Source: Chitinophagales bacterium
GTDB taxonomy: Bacteria > Bacteroidota > Bacteroidia > Chitinophagales > Saprospiraceae
DNA: 25,634 nt
NCBI GenBank assembly: GCA_013297745.1
Contig: JAAFIM010000007.1
Location: 64,747 to 90,380 of the forward strand
Direction of reading: 5' to 3'
Of this stretch, positions 28 to 25,634 are shown one piece after another; the stretch's first letter is position 1; each line of letters begins with the position of its first letter. Both the position numbers and the translations under genes were made by a program. The notes under the pieces were generated by a model. The model did no database searches. It worked only from the letters and a program-made list of their open reading frames with translations, and was not told the DNA's origin.

Positions 28-453
28 ATGCAAGAGGCAGGCAAGACGACATGGGACTTCCCATTTTATAGCGTGGACAGACCCAGCATAAAAGAGTGTC
101 CTGTGCCTATGCCTCAAAAGCCTATGGTAGATGATTTTTCGGGTACAGATTTATATTTTTTGTTGCGCGATACAGATTTACGCATAGATTTTCAGCCTTT
201 GTTAGATAAGTTTGTGAATCACTATTTTAAAGACAAAATAGAAGAAATGGGCGGTAACGATATTATGTTCGTTGTTGGAAATCAGCCTATTGACGGTCCT
301 ATTTTGAACGAGCTTGTGCCTATGTGGGTGTTAGCCTATTACGAGACTATGTACCCAAGTATGCTATTTGAGTTTGGGGCTTTATACAGCAAGTTTATAG
401 ACGAAAAAAGAAAAGAAATACCAGATTTATTTCAGGTGCGCCAGTATGATTAA
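28..453 (+). CDS. hypothetical protein (141 aa). The reading frame is open back to window position 1, so the true start may lie upstream of the window.
   Basis: ORF track; no recognisable motifs. Followed 8 nt downstream by a repeated 26-nt motif. Confidence 0.35.
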   Translation: MQEAGKTTWDFPFYSVDRPSIKECPVPMPQKPMVDDFSGTDLYFLLRDTDLRIDFQPLLDKFVNHYFKDKIEEMGGNDIMFVVGNQPIDGPILNELVPMWVLAYYETMYPSMLFEFGALYSKFIDEKRKEIPDLFQVRQYD

Positions 454-460
454 ACTGCGC

Positions 461-487
461 TGCAGCCAAATTCACAACAAACTGACC
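461..487. repeat. 26-nt motif gca[g/a]CCAAATTCACAACAAAC..accc, copy 1
   Basis: Near-identical to 1689-1714. Both copies sit just downstream of stop codons of small hypothetical ORFs. Confidence 0.6.
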
Positions 488-679
488 CAGTTATCCGCGA
501 TATTGATGCTTGGTTCACAAAGTATTCTGCACGAATAGATAATTTTTCTTTAATCAACACCGTAGGTTTATAATTGAACAAGGCAAAGCTTAAATTCAAC
601 CTGTTTAGTAACTGACCTTTCGCAGTATATTTTTCATTTTTTTTTACAATTAGATTTTTGCAGTTAAATTTTCCTATAT

Positions 680-716
680 GCGCTCAATAGCGTGGGGTTT
701 TATACCCCGCGCGCTG
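680..716 (+). repeat. 35-bp palindromic unit GCGCTCAATAGCGTGGGGTTTTATACCCC(G/A)CGC, copy A
   Basis: Contains internal hairpin GCGTGGGGT-tttat-ACCCCgCGC. Repeated inverted at 766-800 and direct at 25561-25594. Confidence 0.7.
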
Positions 717-765
717 ATAAATATTCTATAAAAAAATAGAAAATATAACATTTTTTACCATTTTT

Positions 766-800
766 GTGCGTGGGGTATAAAACCCCACGCTATTGAGCGC
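766..800 (-). repeat. 35-bp palindromic unit, copy B (inverted orientation)
   Basis: Reverse complement is GCGCTCAATAGCGTGGGGTTTTATACCCCACGCAC. Perfect 8-bp hairpin CGTGGGGT/ACCCCACG. Confidence 0.7.
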
Positions 801-862
801 ACACTGTTATTTTTTTCAATCCACCAAATTTTTTTAACTGCGAAAGGTCAGTTAGTAAAACG

Positions 863-1147
863 GTGGAATATCCTTTTGGCTGGTTGTTTTTTTTTGATAC
901 AATTTTATCAGAAGAAGAACAAGAAAAAATAGGATTGATTTATTTTGCATTATCAAATAAATATCCAACTCTAATAGATAAGCACACAGGTTCTCTGGAG
1001 TCTTTTAATGTCTATTATGAGCCGCCTTATCATTCCAATAAACATATTAAGGAACACGCACTTAAAAATGGTTACGAATGGAAAACAGCGTGGGAAGTGG
1101 AGTTTGATATGAACGATAAAAGCGTCTCATATTTAAAATTTGAATGA
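863..1147 (+). CDS. hypothetical small protein (94 aa, GTG start immediately after the right arm of the palindromic element)
   Basis: ORF track. There is no internal ATG until near the C-terminus, so the GTG start is required. No recognisable motifs. Confidence 0.3.
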   Translation: MEYPFGWLFFFDTILSEEEQEKIGLIYFALSNKYPTLIDKHTGSLESFNVYYEPPYHSNKHIKEHALKNGYEWKTAWEVEFDMNDKSVSYLKFE

Positions 1148-1154
1148 TTATATT

Positions 1155-1658
1155 ATGCAGCCCAAAATAAACGCCGAAAATTTGCTACAGCTTATGCAAA
1201 ATGATGATTGGCGCAAAGAACTGAAAAAAGGTTATGAAGAGAATGAGCCTTATTATGAGTTTGGGATATTGCCGCTTACACTTCCGTACCAAAGCGAACA
1301 AGGTTTTTTATTGTTGCTTAATCACCATTTGGAAATTTATTTTACGTCAGTACCTATCAATAAAGGCGATATGTTGGTTTGTCCCAATGATAATAAAGTA
1401 GGTAAAAAAGAAGAAATTATAACTACAAAAAGCCGTCCAATTACGATTTATTATCTTTCCCAACAAGAATGGCAAATTTGTTGCGCTGAAGCCGCCCAAA
1501 TACGGAAAGATTATGAACAAATTAGAGATGGTTTCTTTCTGAGTATTCCAAATAAATGGTATGAACAGACTTTTATTATCAATTTTGTTAATGAACATTT
1601 TGATGTTATACCAAGACCAGTAAAAAGTCATTTTCCTTATGGCTCAATGGAAAATTGA
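1155..1658 (+). CDS. hypothetical protein (~167 aa from ATG 1155; the ORF track begins at TTG 1140)
   Basis: ORF track. Closely follows 863..1147, suggesting co-transcription. No recognisable motifs. Confidence 0.35.
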   Translation: MQPKINAENLLQLMQNDDWRKELKKGYEENEPYYEFGILPLTLPYQSEQGFLLLLNHHLEIYFTSVPINKGDMLVCPNDNKVGKKEEIITTKSRPITIYYLSQQEWQICCAEAAQIRKDYEQIRDGFFLSIPNKWYEQTFIINFVNEHFDVIPRPVKSHFPYGSMEN

Positions 1659-1688
1659 TTATCAAATGCCATTTACTAAGTGGGCTTT

Positions 1689-1714
1689 TGCAACCAAATT
1701 CACAACAAACAACC
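1689..1714. repeat. 26-nt motif gcaaCCAAATTCACAACAAACaaccc, copy 2
   Basis: Matches 461-487 at 21 of 22 core positions. Lies 31 nt after the stop of the 1155..1658 ORF. Confidence 0.6.
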
Positions 1715-5784: not shown

Positions 5785-6918
5785 ATGGCCAACAATAATA
5801 AACCAAAACACAATTATATTTTTTACGGAACTCGCACCAACGCCTCCGAAGTGGAGAAAATGCTCGCGCACGTGTTCCAATCTAACGAAACTGCCATATC
5901 CAAAGGGCTAAAACAAACCCCCGTTTGTATTTGGGGGAGACACGGTATAGGAAAAACCGATTTGGTGGAGAAATTTGCTATCGAAAACGGTTATAAATGG
6001 GAATATATTGCCCCTGCTCAGTTTGAAGAAATGGGCGACTTGGTGGGTATGCCTCAAGTTACGAAAGATGAAGAGGGCAACACCATCACCCGCTTTATGC
6101 CCCCGTCTTGGGTGCCTACTGAAGAAGCGAAAGGGATTTTGTTGATAGACGACGTCAATCGCGCTGATGACCGCATCTTGCGCGGGATTATGCAATTGAT
6201 ACAAAATTATGAGCTGGTGAGTTGGTCTTTACCCAAAGGCTGGCAGATTATCCTGACCGCTAACCCCGACGGCGGCGACTATTCGGTTACGCCTATGGAC
6301 GATGCGATGCTGACCCGTATGATGCACGTAACGATGGAATTTGATGTCAAAGAGTGGGCAAAATGGGCTGAGCGCAAAAATATAGACCAACGCGGTATCA
6401 ACTTTGTGCTGACTTATCCCGAAGTGGTAACGGGCGACCGCACCACCCCGCGCACATTGACCCAATTTTTCAACGCCATCGCTTCTATCAAAGATTTGGA
6501 AAAAGAGTTGGGCTTGGTGCAATTATTGGGCGATTCTTGCTTGGACACTAGCACAGTTACGGCTTTTATCAACTTTGTGAATAGCAATTTGAACAAATTG
6601 ATTGCACCTGAAGAGATTGTAAACGCTAAAGATTTCAAAGCGCAGGTTTTTGAGCCGCTCAAAACGATGGCACAGCGCGGTTCTACCCTCCGAGTGGATA
6701 TTTTGGCTACACTTTGCACCCGTTTGGTCAATTATTTGGTGGTTAATAACATCAAACCGGATAAAGAGCAGATTCAAAACATCAAATCTTTTATCAAAAT
6801 AGACTTTTTACCCAACGATATTCGCTTGGCTATGGCTCAAGATATAGTTTCTAGTAGCAATCTAAAGTTAATTATGGCAGACCCAGAAATTGGCAAATTA
6901 TTGTTGAACAGAATGTAA
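5785..6918 (+). CDS. AAA+ ATPase, AAA_5/MoxR-like subfamily
   Basis: Walker A GRHGIGKTDL. Walker B plus downstream region ILLIDDVNRADDRILRGIMQLIQNYEL resembles the MoxR/CbbQ pattern (LLxDEINRA...). Sensor-like QIILTANP. The ~180-aa C-terminal extension was not recognised. Confidence 0.6.
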   Translation: MANNNKPKHNYIFYGTRTNASEVEKMLAHVFQSNETAISKGLKQTPVCIWGRHGIGKTDLVEKFAIENGYKWEYIAPAQFEEMGDLVGMPQVTKDEEGNTITRFMPPSWVPTEEAKGILLIDDVNRADDRILRGIMQLIQNYELVSWSLPKGWQIILTANPDGGDYSVTPMDDAMLTRMMHVTMEFDVKEWAKWAERKNIDQRGINFVLTYPEVVTGDRTTPRTLTQFFNAIASIKDLEKELGLVQLLGDSCLDTSTVTAFINFVNSNLNKLIAPEEIVNAKDFKAQVFEPLKTMAQRGSTLRVDILATLCTRLVNYLVVNNIKPDKEQIQNIKSFIKIDFLPNDIRLAMAQDIVSSSNLKLIMADPEIGKLLLNRM

Positions 6919-7748: not shown

Positions 7749-7799
7749 CTAAAAATAAGCATAAAAAAACCAGCTTTGCGTGTTGCAGAGCTGGTTTTT
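7746..7799. repeat. direct repeat copy A (54 nt) spanning the stop codon of the DUF3298-like gene and its terminator hairpin
   Basis: TAGCTAAAAATAAGCATAAAAAAACCAGCTTTGCGTGTTGCAGAGCTGGTTTTT is near-identical to 9798-9853 (2 substitutions, 2 single-nt indels). Confidence 0.8.
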
Positions 7800-7881: not shown

Positions 7882-9204
7882 ATGAAAATAACTAAAATTC
7901 ATCTGCAAAACATAGGCGTTTTTGAAGATACGACTATAGAATTTCCCAGCCACCACGAGGGCGAAAATGGTACGGATATTCATATTTTTACGGGCGAAAA
8001 TGGTAGCGGGAAAAGTACGCTATTGTTGGCGTTGATAAGTAGTTTTTTGCCAAATCACTTATCCTTTAACAATAGTCAACCGCCTAATAATACAACTTTA
8101 TATTTTTTGCAGCAAAGATTAAGGGTAAGTGGTGATAAAATAATAAATAAGATAAAAACTACTTTTAGTGTTGATGATAGAGAAGAGTTGAATAGTTTTG
8201 AAGGACAGTCAAACTCTAAAACTTTTATTAATAATAACGACTTGCCAAAACTTAAGTTGTACCACAAAATAAACAGTGGGTCTAGTATTCTAGATGAAAA
8301 TTTAATGTATGCGGTCTTTATTTACTCTGGACATAGAGCGATAATTGATTATAATTTTAATCCAAATATTGAGCTACATCCATTACACAACGGCACCAAT
8401 CTAATCAAACAAACTACTGCTAAACAATTCTTTAAGTTTGTAAAAGAGCAGATAGTAAAATCGCTTTGGGCAGAAAGAAAGGGAGATGTGCAGCGCGTAG
8501 AGAGTGTAAATTTGGCACTTAACGCAGTAAAGGAATTTATAAAAGAGGTTACTAATTTAAGTGTAGAGTTTGAATTGGATGCGGATGATACGGAAAAGGT
8601 ATTGCTGTTGGTGTCTGGGCAAGTAGTAAATTACGATGCTTTGCCTGACGGGTTGCGCTCGTTGATGAGTTGGATAGCTGACTTATTATGGCGTTTGGAT
8701 AGGTGCAAGTGGGAAAATAATACGCCATTATTGGAGCGTAGAGTGTTATTGTTTTTGGATGAAATAGAAGTGCATTTACACCCAAGTTGGCAGCGTAAAG
8801 TATTGCCTGCGGTGAAAAAATTGTTTAAAAATGCTCAAGTGTTTATCTCTACGCACTCGCCTTTTGTGGTTAATTCTATAGATGGGGCTTTTGTGCATAG
8901 GATAGAATTGGAGGGAAAAAATGCCAAAGTCTTGCCCGCTGTGCAGTCGAATAATGCTACCAATATACAAACTGTGTTGAGGGAAATTTTTGGCGTTTCT
9001 GAAGAGTTTGGATTAGAAGTTAGCGAAAAGCTTAACAAATTTATTCAGATTAAAAACGACATTTTCGCTAAAAAAGAGTATGATAAACCTTATTTTTTGG
9101 AATTAGCCAAATCTTTAATAAAAGAAGGCGAAGAATTAGAGTTAATCGTTGCGTTTGAATTGCGACAATTGAGTAAAGTGCTTAAAGAAGATTTTGCGCT
9201 ATGA
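7882..9204 (+). CDS. ptuA: ABC/SMC-like ATPase (AAA_15/AAA_21 type), Septu PtuA-like
   Basis: N-terminal IHLQNIGVF...IFTGENGSGKSTLLLAL (Walker A). C-terminal LLFLDEIEVHLHP (Walker B/D-loop) and ISTHSPFVV (H-loop). Stop overlaps the start of the HNH gene (ATGA). Confidence 0.6.
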   Translation: MKITKIHLQNIGVFEDTTIEFPSHHEGENGTDIHIFTGENGSGKSTLLLALISSFLPNHLSFNNSQPPNNTTLYFLQQRLRVSGDKIINKIKTTFSVDDREELNSFEGQSNSKTFINNNDLPKLKLYHKINSGSSILDENLMYAVFIYSGHRAIIDYNFNPNIELHPLHNGTNLIKQTTAKQFFKFVKEQIVKSLWAERKGDVQRVESVNLALNAVKEFIKEVTNLSVEFELDADDTEKVLLLVSGQVVNYDALPDGLRSLMSWIADLLWRLDRCKWENNTPLLERRVLLFLDEIEVHLHPSWQRKVLPAVKKLFKNAQVFISTHSPFVVNSIDGAFVHRIELEGKNAKVLPAVQSNNATNIQTVLREIFGVSEEFGLEVSEKLNKFIQIKNDIFAKKEYDKPYFLELAKSLIKEGEELELIVAFELRQLSKVLKEDFAL

Positions 9205-9800
9205 AAAAACAAATTAGACCAGCACAACCACAATGGTTAGCCGATAATTATAAAAAATGGGCTACAGCTTGGGCAAAATTACAAAAGAAAGGGGGGACTT
9301 TTCAGTGGGCTTGGCATCCTATTCACAAAGTTGAACGAGTGAATAAAGAAATCACTAAAATACTTTTAGATGGAATGACTCAAGGGCATTGCTCATTTTG
9401 CGATGCTTTCCCGATAGAAACAACAGGCGTAACGTTGGAACATTTTAAGCCTAAAAGCAAATATCCTTTGTTGGCTTATACGTGGAATAATTTATATCCT
9501 TGTTGTAACAAATGCCAAGAGAAAGGAGATTTTTACAGTTGGTTATTAATAAATCCCGATAATCCAAGATACGATTTTTGGGATTATTTTATTTATGAAG
9601 CATCAAGCGGGATGATTTTAGTAAATGAAGCTGAAGATAAATCTCATTTAGACCGTGCGCGTGCTTTTGCAACGATTAAAATTTACGGGTTGAATGACCA
9701 CAGCCGCCCAGAAATGCGAAAAAGAATTTACAAGCAACTACTAAAAGCTGACCCTGCGGATTATAAGGACTACGCGTATCGGTTTCTAATGGATTTCTAA
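9201..9800 (+). CDS. ptuB: HNH endonuclease, Septu PtuB-like
   Basis: HNH signature HCSFCDAF...TLEHFKPKS...WNNLYPCCNKCQEKG (C..C, EH..P, N, CC.KC). Length ~199 aa. Translationally coupled to the upstream ATPase. Confidence 0.6.
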   Translation: MKKQIRPAQPQWLADNYKKWATAWAKLQKKGGTFQWAWHPIHKVERVNKEITKILLDGMTQGHCSFCDAFPIETTGVTLEHFKPKSKYPLLAYTWNNLYPCCNKCQEKGDFYSWLLINPDNPRYDFWDYFIYEASSGMILVNEAEDKSHLDRARAFATIKIYGLNDHSRPEMRKRIYKQLLKADPADYKDYAYRFLMDF

Positions 9801-9853
9801 GCTAAAAATGAGCATAAAAAAAACCAGCTTTGCGCGTTGCAGAGCTGGTTTTT
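9798..9853. repeat. direct repeat copy B (56 nt) spanning the ptuB-like stop codon and the shared bidirectional terminator
   Basis: TAAGCTAAAAATGAGCATAAAAAAAACCAGCTTTGCGCGTTGCAGAGCTGGTTTTT. See copy A at 7746-7799. Confidence 0.8.
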
Positions 9854-9858: not shown

Positions 9859-9872
9859 GTAGAAATCCCGTT

Positions 9873-10520
9873 TTATTTGTTGCCAAAAAAATAATAGAAA
9901 CCGGTTTGAAAACCAGCGTTTAGGAGATTAAGCCGTAAATCGTGATAATAAACACTTCTATTAGGATTATAATCTATACTGTAATTTAATAAAGACAGTT
10001 GAAAATCTAAAGCAAATTTATCAGAAAAACGATACATAAGACCAGCATTTACGCCTAGATTTACATTTCCAAAGTTATTTTTAAATGTGCCTCCTGGAAT
10101 GGTAGTTCCTGAATTTATTTGTATGCTTCGGGTGTAACCGCCGCCAATTTGAAATTGGGAATAAGCAAAAAGTTTATTTTCAGACAAATTAAACCAACGC
10201 CGCAAACCATAACTGGTCGTATAATTGTGGCTTTGACGATTTACCTTCCCAAAACCAACACTTTGAGGGGGGAGACCATTTGTAAATATATTTTGCGAAT
10301 AACCATAGCCTAAACTAAAGTGATGAGACCAACGCGAATTTTGCCAATAGGAAAAAGTAGGCGATAGCGAACTGCTAAACTCATAACCAGCATTAAAACC
10401 ATTTGGATTAGTTGCTCTTAAAAATAAATTGCCGCCCAAAGCCTTAGTTTTTGGTTCAAATTGGGCTTGAGAAGTGAGCGCGAAGCTCATAAAAATGAAG
10501 AAAATGAATAAACGTTTCAT
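9873..10520 (-). CDS. outer-membrane beta-barrel protein (small OmpA-like/OmpW-like barrel), paralog 1
   Basis: Signal peptide MKRLFIFFIFMSFALTSQAQ. Alternating hydrophobic/aromatic beta-strand pattern. C-terminal YYFFGNK with terminal aromatic. Paralogous to 10579..11226. Confidence 0.55.
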   Translation of the reverse strand: MKRLFIFFIFMSFALTSQAQFEPKTKALGGNLFLRATNPNGFNAGYEFSSSLSPTFSYWQNSRWSHHFSLGYGYSQNIFTNGLPPQSVGFGKVNRQSHNYTTSYGLRRWFNLSENKLFAYSQFQIGGGYTRSIQINSGTTIPGGTFKNNFGNVNLGVNAGLMYRFSDKFALDFQLSLLNYSIDYNPNRSVYYHDLRLNLLNAGFQTGFYYFFGNK

Positions 10521-10578
10521 ATTTTTACAAAAAAAATTAATAAAAAAAACTTAAAAAAATAGCTGATAAAAAATCATT

Positions 10579-11226
10579 TTATTTGTTGCCCAAAAAATAA
10601 TAGAGACCTACTTGAAAACCAGCGTTTAGGGGTTTAGATTGAAAACCGTGATAATAAATACCAGTAGCACTGCTATGATTTATACTATAATTTAATAAAG
10701 ATGCTTGGACATCTAAAGCAAATTTATTGGAAAATCTATACATAAGACCAGCATTTGCGCCTATATTCACACTCCTAAAATTAGGGCTAAAAGTACCTCT
10801 TGGTCTCATATTTCCTGAATTTACTTGTGAGCTTTGGCTATAACCGCCGCCAATTTGAAATTGAGGATAAGCAAAAAGTTTGTTTTTATACAAATTGAAC
10901 CAACGCCGCAAACCATAACTGGTCAGATAATTGTGAGATTGATAACTCATTTTAGCAAAATTAGGACTTTGAGTACTTGCACCGTTGCTAACCACACCTT
11001 GCGAATAGCCATAACCTAAACTAAAATGGTGAGACCAACGCGAGTTTTGCCAGTGCGAAAAAGTGGGCGAAATAGAACCGCTAAAATTGTAACCCAAATA
11101 ATCTCTATTAGGGTTGTTTACGTTTAAAAAAAAATTGCCGCCCAAAGCTTTAGTTTTTGGTTCAAATTGGGCTTGCAAGGTGAGCGCGAAGCTCAAAAAA
11201 ATCAATAGAATGGGTAAAAGTTTCAT
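10579..11226 (-). CDS. outer-membrane beta-barrel protein, paralog 2 (start taken at MKLLPIL, ATG 11226; the ORF-track extension to 11292 is unlikely)
   Basis: Signal peptide MKLLPILLIFLSFALTLQAQ followed by FEPKTKALGGN, almost identical to paralog 1. C-terminal YYFLGNK. Confidence 0.55.
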   Translation of the reverse strand: MKLLPILLIFLSFALTLQAQFEPKTKALGGNFFLNVNNPNRDYLGYNFSGSISPTFSHWQNSRWSHHFSLGYGYSQGVVSNGASTQSPNFAKMSYQSHNYLTSYGLRRWFNLYKNKLFAYPQFQIGGGYSQSSQVNSGNMRPRGTFSPNFRSVNIGANAGLMYRFSNKFALDVQASLLNYSINHSSATGIYYHGFQSKPLNAGFQVGLYYFLGNK

Positions 11227-11264
11227 ATTTTTACAAAAAAATTTTAATAAAAAAATAATAGGTA

Positions 11265-12071: not shown

Positions 12072-12947
12072 TTATTCTAAAACTACATCTATTTTTTCCC
12101 GCGTAAAGCCTACCGTTGCTAAAGTATTGGCTAATAAAGCCCAAAAATCGGCTAATTCGTAAGGGAAATTTTCAATTTGGTATAAATCGCTGTAGGTATC
12201 GTTTCCATACAAATAACTATTATTGCGCCAATACATCCAACTCTTTTCAATATCTTCGTTAATAAACAAACGGTTAAAATTATATTCAAAAAACAACTCA
12301 AGCCAATCATTGTGAAGGTCAGAAGCTTTTGTTTCTGCTATTAGGTAATTTAGGGTTTCGGTGACTAATTTTTCATCTTTTGCGCCCACTTTATGGAGTA
12401 GCAAGTATAAATCTACAGAGTCTTTTATACGCGGTTGGGTTATGGATTGGTGTATTTTCCAAGATAATTGAATGGGCAAAGGGGCAGCTTTGGGGATGAT
12501 AAATTTAGCACCTTGCGCGGGTTGGTATTCTATAGTTACGGGTTCAAAAGGCACAGGCCAATTAAAGCTAATTTCTATATTTAAGGAAATTTTTTCATCC
12601 CCGATAAAGGCCTTAATTTCCGTATTGACGGTGGCAAAATGGTTATACATTGCATAATCGGAATTTTCCCAATAGATATTGTCGCTATCCAATCGCTTAA
12701 ATCGTACGCCATCTTTCAAGTCGCTGTGGCAAACAGTCATCAGCCAGATGTTGAAAATTTTTTCCGCGTCTTCCATATCCCCAAAGGTTTGGCTGCAATA
12801 CCAATCCAAATCGGCTGGTAGGCGGTTGGCAGGATTAGCACAAAATTGGCGGGTTAAAAAGCTGCCTTTGAGTACAAAAGGGCTGTTGAAACTAGCAGCG
12901 CGGGCGATAAAACCCTCATAAGCGCGCATTTCTAATTCAGAAATCAT
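12072..12947 (-). CDS. AbiEii/DUF1814-like nucleotidyltransferase (pol-beta superfamily), paralog A
   Basis: NTase motif FVLKGSFLTRQF...LPADLDWY (hG[GS]...DhD). C-terminal R-x-KDxVDLxLLL motif resembling the conserved KDLYDL of DUF1814. ~290 aa, typical size. Confidence 0.45.
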   Translation of the reverse strand: MISELEMRAYEGFIARAASFNSPFVLKGSFLTRQFCANPANRLPADLDWYCSQTFGDMEDAEKIFNIWLMTVCHSDLKDGVRFKRLDSDNIYWENSDYAMYNHFATVNTEIKAFIGDEKISLNIEISFNWPVPFEPVTIEYQPAQGAKFIIPKAAPLPIQLSWKIHQSITQPRIKDSVDLYLLLHKVGAKDEKLVTETLNYLIAETKASDLHNDWLELFFEYNFNRLFINEDIEKSWMYWRNNSYLYGNDTYSDLYQIENFPYELADFWALLANTLATVGFTREKIDVVLE

Positions 12948-13034
12948 AGTTATTTGGTAAAGTTTGAGAATTATAAAAAATGGTTTAGAGTGTTGCTAAT
13001 AACGGGCAGAATTAGCGCAGTTTTTTTATTTTAA

Positions 13035-13913
13035 TCAATCCCAATCGTCATAATTTGGTCTTGGGTCAAAACCCGCTTTTTCAAAAATTGTGGTTAAGTA
13101 TTCGTAAAAATCATCTAATTTTTCTGGAACTTGATAGCTGCCATAAAAATCTGAATAGGTGTTTGTATCCCAAAAATGCTTAAAATCATAATATTTCTCC
13201 TTGTTATCCATACGCCAATACTCCCAACGGCTCTCTGATATGACTTCGTCCTCGTCAAAGTTATATTCAAAAAACTCATCTGCAAATACGCCACTCATTA
13301 TAGCTTCTTCCTCGGCTGTTTCTTTTATTAGCGCAATCATTTCATTATCAATACTTTGATGTTGCAATAATAAAGATAAATCCACAAAATCTTTCATACG
13401 CGGTTCTATGATACACTGGTGAATTTTCCAAGCGATTTGTAAGTATAAAGGTATGGTTTTGGATAGATTAAACTGCTCGTTATTGCTATTTTTGTACAAA
13501 ATTGGTTTTGGGGTAAAATGTATTGGCCAATTATAACTAATTTCAATATAAAATCGAATAGTTTGACCTTTTACAGTAGCTTCTAATACAGTACCAATAG
13601 TGGTAAATTCTTGATAATCAGCATAATCGGTATTTTCCCAATTAATGTTGCCTGCTACTAGCGGATTAAATTCTACCCCGTCGTTTAGTTTGGTATTGAC
13701 TACAGTCATTAGCCAAATGTTAAAAAAAATCATAGCATTATCCACCATACTTAGTTTTTGCAAACAATACCAATCCAAATCTGCTGGGATTCGGTCGCTT
13801 AAGCTGGGGCAAAATTGGCGGGTCAAAAAGCTACCTTTCAATACAAAAGGGCTATCAAAGGTTGCAGCGCGCTGGATAAATGATTCGCAAGCGAGTAAAG
13901 CTAAATTATTCAT
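13035..13913 (-). CDS. AbiEii/DUF1814-like nucleotidyltransferase, paralog B
   Basis: Same motifs as paralog A (FVLKGSFLTRQF, PADLDWY, PRMKDFVDLSLLL). Collinear similarity across the full length. Confidence 0.45.
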   Translation of the reverse strand: MNNLALLACESFIQRAATFDSPFVLKGSFLTRQFCPSLSDRIPADLDWYCLQKLSMVDNAMIFFNIWLMTVVNTKLNDGVEFNPLVAGNINWENTDYADYQEFTTIGTVLEATVKGQTIRFYIEISYNWPIHFTPKPILYKNSNNEQFNLSKTIPLYLQIAWKIHQCIIEPRMKDFVDLSLLLQHQSIDNEMIALIKETAEEEAIMSGVFADEFFEYNFDEDEVISESRWEYWRMDNKEKYYDFKHFWDTNTYSDFYGSYQVPEKLDDFYEYLTTIFEKAGFDPRPNYDDWD

Positions 13914-19831: not shown

Positions 19832-19869
19832 AATATGAATAGTTTTTTTAATTGGTTTGTATGTGTTGA

Positions 19870-19977
19870 AAATAATCCTTTATTTGTTCCAAATCAGAAC
19901 GGTCAGCGATAAGCCGAGAAATCGGCCAACGCTGGTTATTGACATATAAATTATACCCATCAAAGCGAATTTGTTGG
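19870..19977. repeat. 108-bp direct repeat, copy 1. It is an orphan duplicate of the 3' end of the PH-domain protein gene. The final 18 nt also encode the C-terminus and stop of the HEPN-like gene.
   Basis: Identical to 23024-23131 except one substitution (agcGataag vs agcAataag), plus a 1-nt A-run difference at the 5' edge. Confidence 0.85.
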
Positions 19978-22995: not shown

Positions 22996-23001
22996 AGTAT
23001 T

Positions 23002-23373
23002 TTAATTATTATCCAATTGTTCGAAATAATCCTTTATTTGTTCCAAATCAGAACGGTCAGCAATAAGCCGAGAAATCGGCCAACGCTGGTTATTGACATA
23101 TAAATTATACCCATCAAAGCGAATTTGTTGGGGCAAATAAGTGGTTTTGCGCAGGGTCATACCCAACCCGTTGCGAAGTTCTAATTCTGTCTTAGTAACG
23201 ATTAAAATAGGATTTTTGAAGAAACAAAGCCCTAAAATCAACAGCACAAAGCCCATAAATAGTTCTAACATTTCCCACAACCAAAAGCCCATTACCAGCG
23301 ATAAAACGCTGATAATGAGCATAGAAATAGACCAAATTCTGTTGTGGCGTACAGCAAAAGGGAAGTTAAGCAT
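23002..23373 (-). CDS. small membrane protein with bacterial PH-like (bPH_2/YdbT-like) domain. Its start overlaps the ftsZ stop by 1 nt (TAATG).
   Basis: Two N-terminal hydrophobic helices followed by a ~70-aa soluble domain. The 3' end is duplicated at 19870-19977. Confidence 0.45.
   Translation of the reverse strand: MLNFPFAVRHNRIWSISMLIISVLSLVMGFWLWEMLELFMGFVLLILGLCFFKNPILIVTKTELELRNGLGMTLRKTTYLPQQIRFDGYNLYVNNQRWPISRLIADRSDLEQIKDYFEQLDNN
23024..23131. repeat. 108-bp direct repeat, copy 2 (inside the 3' end of the PH-domain protein gene)
   Basis: See copy 1. Confidence 0.85.
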
Positions 23374-25339: not shown

Positions 25340-25560
25340 CGTATAGGGGTATTAAATAACTAATTAATATGAATACCAAATTTAGGGGGAATTATCACCT
25401 CAATATCTAATAATTCGGCTCTGTTGTCTTTATCAAAATTAAAATAATAAAACACAAAATAATAATACCATTCGTTGGGGCTGCCGTTGTGGTACTTTTT
25501 AAAATAGAAATGTGTTTAGTAAGGTTTTACAAGGTAAAACAAGCAGCAATAATATAAGGC

Positions 25561-25594
25561 GCGCTCAATAGCGTGGGGTTTTACACCCCACGCG
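25561..25594 (+). repeat. 35-bp palindromic unit, copy C. It is preceded at 25514-25523 by TGTTTAGTAA, which resembles the outer arm of the 604-860 element.
   Basis: GCGCTCAATAGCGTGGGGTTTTACACCCCACGCG with perfect hairpin CGTGGGGT/ACCCCACG. Likely the left part of a second MITE-like copy running off the window end. Confidence 0.65.
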
Positions 25595-25634
25595 GCAATA
25601 AAAATTTTATCAAAATATATCATTTTTTTATTTG

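What the first reader, a model, noticed from the sequence alone, without database searches (positions are those of the whole stretch)
604..860. Nested-palindrome MITE-like element built around a 35-bp hairpin unit that recurs at the window end
Seen: a 257-bp non-coding region has 17-22-bp terminal inverted arms (TAACTGACCTTTCGCAG / CTGCGAAAGGTCAGTTA). Inside it, two inverted copies of a 35-bp unit (GCGCTCAATAGCGTGGGGTTTTATACCCC(G/A)CGC) each contain a perfect short hairpin. A third copy of the 35-bp unit sits at 25561-25594, with the arm-like fragment TGTTTAGTAA nearby at 25514-25523. This suggests a second, partial element at the window edge. The element could be a MITE, a REP/BIME-like structure affecting mRNA stability, or a recombination hotspot. 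It abuts the GTG start of a small ORF at 863.
Basis: seen in the sequence. Interest (0 to 1): 0.5.

Follow-up and report, generated by a model that had tools for sequence, protein, structure and literature searches.

The report
Strain-specific REP-like nested palindrome
The nested palindrome is real: it is an inverted pair of a small GC-rich hairpin repeat of the known REP/REPIN kind, sitting in DNA that a sister strain lacks and that replaced part of a small gene cassette, so it is a fairly ordinary miniature repeat element, not a new kind of system.

Summary
The outer inverted arms are 594-626/837-869 (29/33, with a perfect 17-nt core). The inner inverted 34-nt units are 679-712/768-801 (33/34), and a third unit lies at 25561-25593. 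None of these is expected by chance.

Comparative data change the picture. A sister strain (L017) has a promoter region, an Imm35-like gene and the 5' end of a second one where the window has 597-855. The palindrome is therefore strain-specific DNA, and ORF 863-1147 is a truncated gene. The whole segment 483-1689 is a cassette flanked by 21-nt direct repeats and is absent from another relative (L015).

The third unit also lies in strain-variable DNA. It is collinear with unit plus spacer (64/75) up to the window end, so the repeated entity is the unit-spacer-unit dimer. The outer arms occur only once.

The hairpin core (N)TAG-CGTGGGGT...ACCCCACG recurs in other genomes in REP-typical settings: just 3' of genes, as long "double-foot" palindromes, and on both sides of an IS200-type Y1 transposase gene.

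The best reading is a REP/REPIN-like non-autonomous element moved by a Y1 transposase encoded elsewhere. A strict TIR-plus-duplication MITE is not supported. Genome-wide copy number and the transposase could not be tested. I rate it a new member of a known kind, of modest interest.

The parts
597..855 (.). Strain-specific palindromic DNA, 259 nt. This is the element proper. Sister strain L017 has 509 nt of other sequence here: a promoter region, gene A and the 5' end of gene B.
   Evidence: blastn of L017 against the window: L017 1-238 = window 359-596 (98.7%) and L017 748-1480 = window 856-1588 (92.9%). Sequences read. Alignment of the right border.
594..626 (+). Left outer arm. The perfect core is 609-625 (TAACTGACCTTTCGCAG). 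Bases 594-596 are ancestral DNA shared with L017.
837..869 (-). Right outer arm. The perfect core is 838-854. Bases 856-869 are ancestral coding sequence of gene B (...KTVEY).
679..712 (+). Unit copy 1: tail TGCGCTCAATA, then hairpin GCGTGGGGT-TTTAT-ACCCCGCGC at 690-712.
713..767 (.). AT-rich 55-nt spacer between the two inverted units. It contains a small hairpin of its own.
   Evidence: It is collinear with 25594-25634.
768..801 (-). Unit copy 2, inverted, with the hairpin at 768-790. Together with copy 1 it forms a head-to-head, REPIN-like dimer with the tails on the outside.
25560..25634 (+). Third unit (25561-25593, hairpin 25571-25593) plus a spacer homologue. This is the left part of a second dimer, cut off by the window end.
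   Evidence: 64/75 identity to 679-766
25470..25634 (.). DNA that contig L001 lacks at this position. L001 comes from the same sample as L017. Contig L002, from another sample, matches the window as far as 25537.
   Evidence: window sequence
863..1147 (+). The 3' 94 codons of an Imm35-like gene (gene B). Homologues carry 6-29 more N-terminal residues. The frame is open upstream only to the TGA at 794-796, with no start codon in between.
   Evidence: (Imm35 hits below threshold)
1140..1658 (+). Second cassette gene, 167-172 aa, function unknown. A copy at 85% nucleotide identity lies next to scpB in L016.
462..482 (+). Left copy of the 21-nt direct repeat (GCAGCCAAATTCACAACAAAC) that bounds the 1.2-kb cassette 483-1689.
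   Evidence: L015 has a single copy and no cassette.
1690..1710 (+). Right copy of the 21-nt direct repeat (GCAACCAAATTCACAACAAAC).

Best explanation
Bases 597-855 are a non-autonomous palindromic repeat element of the REP/REPIN type.

**Building block**
- The unit is 33-34 nt: a single-stranded 'foot' (GCGCTCAATAG) followed by a 9-bp GC-rich hairpin (GCGTGGGGT / ACCCCRCGC).
- Two units in head-to-head orientation, 55 nt apart, form a dimer. This dimer is the entity that recurs at the window end.
- At this locus the dimer sits between a second, locus-specific pair of 17-33-nt inverted arms.

**Inferred mechanism**
- On single-stranded DNA (lagging-strand template or repair intermediates) the hairpin plus foot is recognised, cut and rejoined by a Y1 HUH transposase (TnpA_REP/RAYT or IS200-like) encoded elsewhere in the genome.
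- This would spread the dimer without terminal inverted repeats or target duplications.

**Shown**
- The anatomy of the element.
- Its absence from a sister strain at both loci.
- The loss of 509 nt, including a gene start, at this locus.
- Relatives of the hairpin in REP-like settings, one of them flanking a Y1 transposase gene.

**Inferred**
- Dependence on a Y1 enzyme in this genome.
- Multi-copy status genome-wide.
- Any secondary role as a transcript-end or stability hairpin.
For: 1. Anatomy. Foot plus stable stem-loop units form an inverted dimer with a 55-nt spacer. This matches the head-to-head REP dimers / REPINs with 20-100-bp spacers described in PMC3733652. That paper also reports REP dimers nested inside longer palindromes in Anabaena variabilis and Halothiobacillus neapolitanus.
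2. The dimer recurs. 679-766 aligns with 25560-25634 at 64/75. The outer arm does not recur.
3. Strain polymorphism at both loci. L017 carries other DNA in place of 597-855. L001 diverges from the window at 25469/25470.
4. Relatives of the core.
   - Metagenome contig L003, which has T9SS genes, carries 3 copies in 13 kb. They are 'double-foot' palindromes, GTAG...CTAC.
   - The genome scan found 10 stretches. In 7 of 11 independent non-window loci (these 10 plus L003), TA precedes the core, giving (N)TAG. My estimate of the chance of 7 or more of 11 is about 1e-6.
   - These copies lie just 3' of genes or between convergent genes, and once the TAG is the stop codon.
   - L011 has a second unit with the same tail (GCGCCTAATAG) and a C:G to G:C compensatory change in the stem.
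5. In L008 the core hairpin closes a three-hairpin module present on both sides of a Y1_Tnp gene (Pfam E 1.7e-23; NCBIfam IS200/IS605, 81 bits).
6. Literature. TnpA_REP subclass 2.4 is abundant in Bacteroidetes and patchy across phyla. Its REPs have three G-C pairs at the stem base or a double foot, and in-frame intragenic copies occur (PMC6006769).
Against: - The foot in the window is ATAG, not the canonical GT[AG]G.
- Only two loci (three units) are seen in 25.6 kb. There are none in about 37 kb from close relatives.
- No species-representative genome holds many copies of the exact core. The scan gave 10 stretches in total, at most 3 per genome.
- No Y1 transposase gene is present in the window. 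The source genome could not be retrieved.
- The only Y1 gene seen next to the core is IS200-type, not RAYT-type (RayT model 20.6 bits against a cut-off of 80). It is in a different phylum, where only the 23-nt core is shared.
- The flanks of the dimer differ between the two loci. The dimer may therefore have arrived inside larger imported DNA, not by precise transposition.
- Hairpins with GC-rich stems are common. Some cross-phylum hits (L006, L010, L014) are probably coincidental.
Confidence: 0.5

Rival explanations
1. A classical MITE. The 259-nt AT-rich element carries 17-18-nt terminal inverted repeats and is mobilised by a DDE transposase. The hairpin dimer is internal cargo or a nested second insertion.
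For: - Perfect 17-nt inverted arms, with the right arm ending exactly at the border of the strain-specific DNA at 855.
- Size and AT-richness are typical of MITEs.
- The element is absent from sister strain L017.
Against: - There is no direct-repeat target duplication at 596|597 and 855|856.
- The left arm starts 12 nt inside the border.
- The arm sequence occurs nowhere else in the window and not in viral contigs.
- The second locus shares the inner dimer, not the arms.
- Arrival is coupled to a 509-nt loss, not a clean insertion.
- No transposase is present in the window.
Confidence: 0.12
2. A recombination or repair product with no dedicated mobility. The palindromic DNA arose by inverted duplication or fold-back repair, or was imported by homologous recombination from a divergent strain. 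The hairpin unit would then be a common intergenic motif such as a structural or terminator-like hairpin.
For: - Arm similarity beyond the perfect core (594-608 against 855-869, 11/15) runs into ancestral DNA on both sides. Part of the left arm is therefore an inverted copy of gene-B sequence.
- An 8-nt microhomology TTATAAAA is seen at both edges of the 509-nt segment in L017 (read).
- Flank identities are mosaic, 93-99%.
- The window has several other strain-variable junctions.
Against: - The unit-spacer module recurs at a second, unrelated locus with 85% identity.
- The same tail plus hairpin is found in other organisms. A purely local origin does not explain this.
Confidence: 0.2
3. An invertible DNA switch (inverton). 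The outer arms are recombinase sites flanking a 211-bp segment directly upstream of the ORF863/ORF1140 operon, and inversion turns expression on or off.
For: - Inverted repeats of 17-33 nt flank about 210 bp next to a gene start.
- This architecture is common in Bacteroidota (my own knowledge; not tested here).
Against: - There is no TAnnTTTG -7 box on either strand in 483-900, although the window has 56 of them.
- The interior is itself nearly palindromic, so inversion would change little.
- The downstream gene is a truncated remnant.
- No recombinase gene is present in the window.
- This reading does not explain the second copy of the dimer.
Confidence: 0.06
4. Primarily a cis-acting RNA element. 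A transcribed long hairpin would terminate or insulate read-through from the upstream gene, or stabilise the mRNA 3' end.
For: - The predicted structure is very stable on both strands, z about -13.6.
- Relatives of the hairpin lie just 3' of genes.
- REPs are known to have such effects (PMC3733652).
Against: - No T-tract follows the main hairpins (sequence). The only terminator-like calls are the small tail hairpin followed by the T-rich loop of the main hairpin.
- No Rfam family reaches its threshold.
- Canonical bidirectional terminators in this window look different, for example 7763-7799.
- The element is absent from sister strains, so it is not a conserved regulator of this locus.
Confidence: 0.1

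Closest known systems
REP sequences / REPINs (head-to-head REP dimers) mobilised by REP-associated tyrosine transposases, especially the REP types cognate to TnpA_REP subclass 2.4 (RAYT group 4), as described in PMC6006769, PMC3733652 and PMC3116915
   Same: - The unit is a short foot followed by a stable stem-loop whose base is three G-C pairs.
- Units pair as an inverted dimer with the feet outside and a conserved spacer of 55 nt, within the 20-100 nt range.
- The dimer can fold into one long hairpin.
- It is nested inside a longer palindrome, as reported for some REP dimers.
- Relatives occur as 'double-foot' palindromes (GTAG...CTAC), just 3' of genes, and inside an ORF in frame.
- The family is spread patchily across phyla.
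   Different: - The foot here is ATAG, not GT[AG]G.
- Multi-copy status and a cognate RAYT are not shown for this genome.
- The only adjacent Y1 gene found (L008) is IS200-type and sits in an Anaerolineae genome.
- This particular sequence is not in the supplementary tables of either survey.
IS200/IS605-derived palindrome-associated elements (subterminal hairpins recognised by TnpA Y1)
   Same: - Hairpin-based, with no terminal inverted repeats or target duplications required.
- In L008 the core hairpin lies in direct-repeat modules on both sides of an IS200-type tnpA.
   Different: - Left and right ends of such elements are distinct and in the same orientation.
- Here the repeated entity is a symmetric inverted dimer.
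- No tnpA or tnpB remnant is present.
MITEs such as Correia/NEMIS, RUP and ERIC (TIR-bounded miniature elements)
   Same: - About 260 nt, AT-rich and non-coding.
- Inverted arms, folds into a long hairpin, and present or absent between strains.
   Different: - No target-site duplication.
- The arms are not found at any other locus examined.
- The left arm is not terminal.
- The second copy shares only the inner dimer.
Rickettsia palindromic elements and intragenic REPs
   Same: A relative of the unit (L003 2463-2502) lies in frame inside a T9SS C-terminal sorting domain.
   Different: - The window copies are intergenic.
- The L003 domain is not lengthened by the palindrome (75 residues against 73 profile positions).

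Membership tests
REP / REPIN (RAYT-associated) | Short (20-40 nt) imperfect palindrome that forms a stable stem-loop | tested here: met
   A 9-bp stem with a 5-nt loop in all three copies. DNA fold energies are -10 to -12 kcal/mol, z -2.6 to -4.6.
REP / REPIN (RAYT-associated) | Conserved 5' tetranucleotide foot GT[AG]G at the base of the stem | tested here: not met
   All three window copies have ATAG. Relatives L003 and L009 have GTAG. (N)TAG occurs in 7 of 11 independent non-window loci. PMC6006769 notes that subclasses 2.6 and 3 also lack GT[AG]G.
REP / REPIN (RAYT-associated) | Two units in inverted orientation separated by a short, conserved spacer (REPIN / head-to-head dimer) | tested here: met
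   Units at 679-712 and 768-801, 55 nt apart, with the tails outside. The spacer is conserved at the second locus.
REP / REPIN (RAYT-associated) | Tens to hundreds of copies dispersed in the genome | not testable with these tools
   The source genome (an NCBI contig of 90,380 nt) is not retrievable. There are two loci in 25.6 kb, none in about 37 kb of relatives, and 3 copies in 13 kb in L003.
REP / REPIN (RAYT-associated) | A cognate Y1 transposase gene flanked by the same repeats (REPtron) | tested here: inconclusive
   There is none in the window. In L008 an IS200-type Y1 gene is bracketed by modules ending in the core hairpin, but this is a different phylum and shares only the core.
TIR-bounded MITE | Terminal inverted repeats at the exact ends of the inserted DNA | tested here: inconclusive
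   The right arm ends at the border (855). The left perfect arm starts at 609, 12 nt inside the border at 597.
TIR-bounded MITE | Target-site duplication flanking the element | tested here: not met
   The flanks are ...CTTAAATT | element | TAAAACGG..., which share no direct repeat. The 21-nt direct repeats belong to the larger cassette 483-1689.
TIR-bounded MITE | Several copies sharing the same ends | tested here: not met
   Within the sequence available, the arm TAACTGACCTTTCGCAG occurs only at 609 and 838, even with up to 3 mismatches allowed. It is absent from viral contigs. A genome-wide count is not testable.
Invertible promoter (inverton) | A promoter inside an IR-flanked segment, with both orientations present in the population | tested here: not met
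   There is no TAnnTTTG box in 483-900 on either strand. The orientation polymorphism is not testable without reads.
Integron attC site | R''/R' core sites (RYYYAAC ... GTTRRRY) at the palindrome ends, next to a cassette boundary, with an intI nearby | tested here: not met
   The arms read ...TAGTAAC... and GTTAGTA, which do not fit either core. The palindrome is 114 nt inside the cassette boundary. No integrase is present in the window.
Intrinsic terminator | A GC-rich hairpin immediately followed by a T-tract | tested here: not met
   The main hairpins are followed by GCTGATAAAT, TATTGAGCGC and GGCAATAAAA. The scan flags only the small tail hairpin.
Any Rfam RNA family | Score at or above the family's gathering threshold | tested here: not met
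   There are no hits at gathering thresholds in the window or in 11 related loci. The best permissive hits are far below threshold.

The most novel reading that the evidence does not exclude
The foot-plus-hairpin module is a low-copy element that travels horizontally across phyla and marks sites of cassette exchange. It would act as a single-strand recombination site, loosely analogous to an integron attC. Through it, small immunity or defence cassettes in Bacteroidota would be swapped, truncated or replaced, which is different from the selfish, vertically inherited behaviour of a REPIN. Three things are compatible with this reading. Both copies lie in strain-variable DNA next to small cassette genes. 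The element arrived together with loss of a gene start. No high-copy genome was found for this core.
Probability: 0.07. Interest if true: 0.7.

Novelty: new member of a known kind. Interest (0 to 1): 0.3.

Why it matters
If the REP/REPIN reading holds, this is one more hairpin-repeat family in Bacteroidota, a phylum where such elements are less well catalogued than in Proteobacteria and Cyanobacteria. It comes with a clear before/after example: the sister strain keeps an intact pair of Imm35-like genes, while this strain has the palindrome and a truncated gene. The case shows how a miniature palindromic repeat can remodel a small accessory cassette. The near-identical foot plus hairpin in organisms of 38%, 44% and 53% GC gives a concrete sequence for finding the cognate Y1 transposase. 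It does not open a new class of system.

Tried and rejected
**Sequence-library searches**
- Rfam at gathering thresholds on the window and on 11 related loci found nothing. Permissive hits (MIR2606, AEV_CRE, BTnc060) are far below threshold and reflect only the long hairpin.
- The species-genome scan with the full 33-nt structural pattern gave 0 hits. The metagenome scan gave one contig, L003.
- The core-only genome scan gave 10 stretches. L006, L010 and the viral hit L014 (inside a coding region) look coincidental.
- The arm sequence is absent from viral contigs.
- blastn of the element or of an idealised 43-nt palindrome against plasmids and phages gave only AT-rich or insignificant matches.
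- A literal search of papers for the core found only unrelated primers. The core is not in the supplements of the two REP surveys.

**Attempts to fetch the source contig**
- Look-ups with four exact proteins all returned nothing. The cluster look-up shows only that the contig is an NCBI contig of 90,380 nt.
- I checked whether L012 (Bernardetiaceae MAG) is the source genome. It shares no similarity with the window beyond the hairpin.

**Protein annotation**
- Pfam, NCBIfam and PADLOC gave nothing for the cassette ORFs at E of 0.01 or better. The full-length homologues gave only sub-threshold Imm35 hits.

**Readings considered and rejected**
- CRISPR repeat: the copies are inverted and do not form a regular array.
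- Integron attC: the core sites do not fit, the palindrome is not at the cassette boundary, and there is no integrase.
- Intrinsic terminator: no T-tract follows the hairpins.
- Assembly artefact: the arms are imperfect and the connectors are asymmetric (53 and 36 nt).

Full report
**1. The observation**

The sequence is as described.
- The repeat finder gives an inner inverted repeat at 679-712 / 768-801 (34 nt, 97%, 55 nt apart). It also gives an outer one at 594-626 / 837-869 (33 nt, 88%).
- The 33-nt unit matches three times, at 680-712 (+), 768-800 (-) and 25561-25593 (+). Dinucleotide shuffles expect 0.
- The 17-nt arm core matches only at 609-625 and 838-854, against 0.02 expected.
- In 300 shuffles of 483-900 the longest perfect inverted repeat was 12 nt or less.
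- Each unit forms a 9-bp GC-rich stem with a 5-nt loop.
- The whole region folds at about -114 kcal/mol on either strand, z about -13.6.

There are three minor corrections.
- The unit is 33-34 nt long.
- The 10-mer TGTTTAGTAA is at 25513-25522 and is weak on its own.
- The third copy resembles copy 1 far beyond the unit. 679-766 aligns with 25560-25634 at 64/75, right to the last base of the window.

The third locus is therefore a second unit-spacer(-unit) dimer cut by the window end. The repeated entity is the dimer, not the outer arms.

**2. Context from close relatives**

The window has about 38% GC. Related contigs carry T9SS sorting-domain genes, which points to Bacteroidota. Three alleles of this locus were recovered.

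(a) L015 has no cassette.
- L015 comes from JGI sample 3300021167 and is 93-97% identical to the window.
- In it the upstream gene is followed after 67 nt by the acyl-CoA ligase gene.
- Relative to L015, window 483-1689 is an insertion bounded by a 21-nt direct repeat at 462-482 and 1690-1710. L015 has one copy of that repeat.

(b) L017 has an intact cassette.
- L017 comes from JGI sample 3300083026.
- It shares the left junction and the leader up to window 596 (98.7%), and resumes at window 856 (92.9%).
- Between these points it has 509 nt, where the window has 597-855. The 509 nt are a promoter region, a 124-aa gene and the first 80 nt of a 123-aa gene.

(c) The window has the cassette with the palindrome.

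Homologues of ORF 863-1147 are 100-123 aa long and carry 6-29 extra N-terminal residues. The window frame has no start codon between the TGA at 794-796 and position 863. The ORF that the palindrome 'abuts' is therefore a 5'-truncated gene. Its full-length relatives give weak, sub-threshold Imm35 matches.

The palindrome is thus strain-specific DNA with borders at 596|597 and 855|856. Its arrival went with the loss of one gene and the start of another.
- No direct repeat flanks it.
- The right arm ends at the border, while the left perfect arm starts 12 nt inside.
- The weaker arm similarity outside the perfect core (11/15) extends into ancestral DNA on both sides.

At the other locus, contig L001 (same sample as L017) diverges from the window at 25469/25470. 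L002, from another sample, matches the window as far as 25537. Both places that carry the unit are therefore polymorphic between close strains.

**3. Relatives of the unit elsewhere**

A structural pattern of the full unit found nothing in the species-genome collection and one metagenome contig, L003.
- L003 is 53% GC and has T9SS genes. It holds three copies in 13 kb.
- Each copy is the centre of a long perfect palindrome with GTAG...CTAC feet.
- One copy lies 60 nt after a stop codon.
- One lies inside a Por_Secre_tail domain without lengthening it.

The 23-nt core alone found 10 stretches in the genome collection.
- In 7 of the 11 independent non-window loci (these 10 plus L003), TA precedes the core, giving (N)TAG. 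I estimate the chance of 7 or more of 11 at about 1e-6.
- Three organisms (the window, L011 and L012) share the 12-bp stem ATAGCGTGGGGT.
- L011 also has a second unit with the same tail (GCGCCTAATAG) and a compensatory C:G to G:C change.
- These copies sit just 3' of genes or between convergent genes. In L009 the TAG is the stop codon.
- In L008, a complete Anaerolineae chromosome, a three-hairpin module ending in the core lies on both sides of a gene. That gene's product matches Y1_Tnp (E 1.7e-23) and the NCBIfam IS200/IS605 model (81 bits), but not the RayT model (20.6 bits against a cut-off of 80).

No genome in the collection has many copies of the exact core, and some hits (L006, L010, L014) look coincidental. 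No unit-like sequence occurs in about 37 kb from close relatives of the window organism.

**4. What it most likely is**

The anatomy matches published descriptions of REPs and their dimers.
- Head-to-head REP dimers have 20-100-bp spacers that are conserved.
- Such dimers can be nested within longer palindromes.
- Intragenic in-frame copies occur, and the TAG of the foot can supply a stop codon (PMC3733652).
[quoted passage not shown] Its REPs have three G-C pairs at the stem base or a 'double foot' (PMC6006769).
- The L003, L011 and L012 palindromes are of the double-foot type. The window units are single-foot units arranged as a head-to-head dimer.

I therefore read 597-855 as a REP/REPIN-like non-autonomous element, probably handled as single-stranded DNA by a Y1 HUH transposase encoded elsewhere.

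*Shown:* the anatomy, the recurrence of the dimer, the strain polymorphism at two loci, the REP-like contexts of relatives, and one adjacency to a Y1 gene.

*Inferred:* the enzyme, the multi-copy status, and any RNA-level effect.

*Weak points:*
- The foot is ATAG, not GT[AG]G.
- Copy number and a cognate transposase are untested because the source genome could not be fetched.
- The flanks of the dimer differ at the two loci, so it may have come in with larger pieces of imported DNA.

**5. Rivals**

- *Classical MITE.* This is not supported. There is no target duplication, the left arm is not terminal, and the arms are unique to this locus.
- *Inverton.* This is unlikely. No Bacteroidetes -7 box lies in or near the element, the interior is nearly symmetric, the downstream gene is a remnant, and no recombinase is present in the window.
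- *Terminator or regulatory RNA.* No T-tract follows the hairpins, no Rfam family matches, and sister strains lack the element.
- *Local recombination or repair origin.* This remains a serious alternative for the outer arms. Part of the left arm mirrors ancestral gene sequence, and TTATAAAA microhomology lies at both edges of the lost segment. It does not explain the second dimer or the relatives in other organisms.

**6. Verdict**

It is wrong as a TIR-plus-duplication MITE.

The new information comes from comparison with relatives.
- The element is strain-specific.
- It replaced 509 nt and truncated an Imm35-like gene.
- It lies inside a 1.2-kb cassette with 21-nt direct repeats.

I rate it a new member of a known kind, of modest interest.

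Noticed in passing
window 462-1710: A 1.2-kb accessory cassette (483-1689) is bounded by a 21-nt direct repeat at 462-482 and 1690-1710, with one mismatch. Relative L015 lacks the cassette and has a single copy of the 21-mer between the same two genes. L017 has the cassette. A 21-nt repeat is long for a transposase duplication and looks more like an att-type core. No integrase is present in the window.
   Followed up: partly
window 1147-1656 and L016 9994-10502: The second cassette gene (167 aa, function unknown) has a copy at 85% nucleotide identity in a different genomic context, between scpB and a pseudouridine synthase gene. That contig comes from the same sample as L015. Only the ORF is similar, not its flanks.
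   Followed up: partly
L017 285-659 and 668-1039; window 863-1147: The cassette originally held two tandem paralogous small genes sharing an EYPFGW motif. They give weak, sub-threshold Imm35 (immunity protein 35) matches. This is possibly an orphan immunity-gene pair.
   Followed up: partly
window 7763-7799 and 9817-9853: A second palindromic repeat, AAAAAAACCAGCTTTGCG(T/C)GTTGCAGAGCTGGTTTTT (37 nt, 97%), has the form of a bidirectional terminator. Its two copies bracket a two-gene module: an AAA_15/AAA_21 ATPase at 7882-9204 and an unknown 199-aa protein at 9201-9800.
   Followed up: no
window about 6947 onward, against L015 10560 onward: Synteny with L015 ends right after the AAA_5 gene. L015 continues with an unrelated minus-strand gene that has no homologue in the window. 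This is another strain-variable junction, in a window that mixes housekeeping genes with defence-type genes (AbiEii twice, GmrSD_N plus HEPN plus Dcm).
   Followed up: partly
window 19846-19977 and 23000-23131: A 132-nt direct repeat (92%) lies 3.1 kb apart. It flanks the HEPN / GmrSD_N / Dcm methylase block.
   Followed up: no
window 9871-11255 and 12072-13913: Two pairs of tandem paralogous genes lie on the minus strand at about 75-80% nucleotide identity. One pair is of unknown function; at least one gene of the other pair is AbiEii-like.
   Followed up: no
window 480-487, 610-617, 846-853: The octamer AACTGACC of the outer arms also occurs exactly at the left junction of the 1.2-kb cassette (CAAAC|TGACC). 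These are the only three occurrences in the window. This may be chance (roughly 0.04 expected in the cassette).
   Followed up: no
L008 5956-6068 and 6573-6683: In an Anaerolineae chromosome, an IS200-type tnpA (6103-6501, minus strand) is bracketed by two direct copies of a three-hairpin module. The first 76 nt are nearly identical between the copies. About 12 nt before the last hairpin differ completely, and the last hairpin is degenerate in the second copy.
   Followed up: partly
L003 2463-2502: A 39-nt perfect palindrome of the same family lies in frame inside the T9SS C-terminal sorting domain of a 556-aa protein. It does not lengthen the domain. An identical copy lies about 60 nt after the stop codon of the same gene.
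   Followed up: partly
L013 1674-1848 and 1938-2112: A Fibrobacteres MAG has a 175-nt segment holding four different hairpins, the last being the core. The segment is duplicated 264 nt apart (97%) between convergent genes.
   Followed up: no
L011 6798-6827 and 6861-6891: A MAG binned as Candidatus Uhrbacteria has two units 35 nt apart just after an HU gene. One shares 32 of 33 bases with an idealised window palindrome. The other has the same tail and a compensatory stem change. This is either cross-phylum spread or a mis-binned contig.
   Followed up: partly
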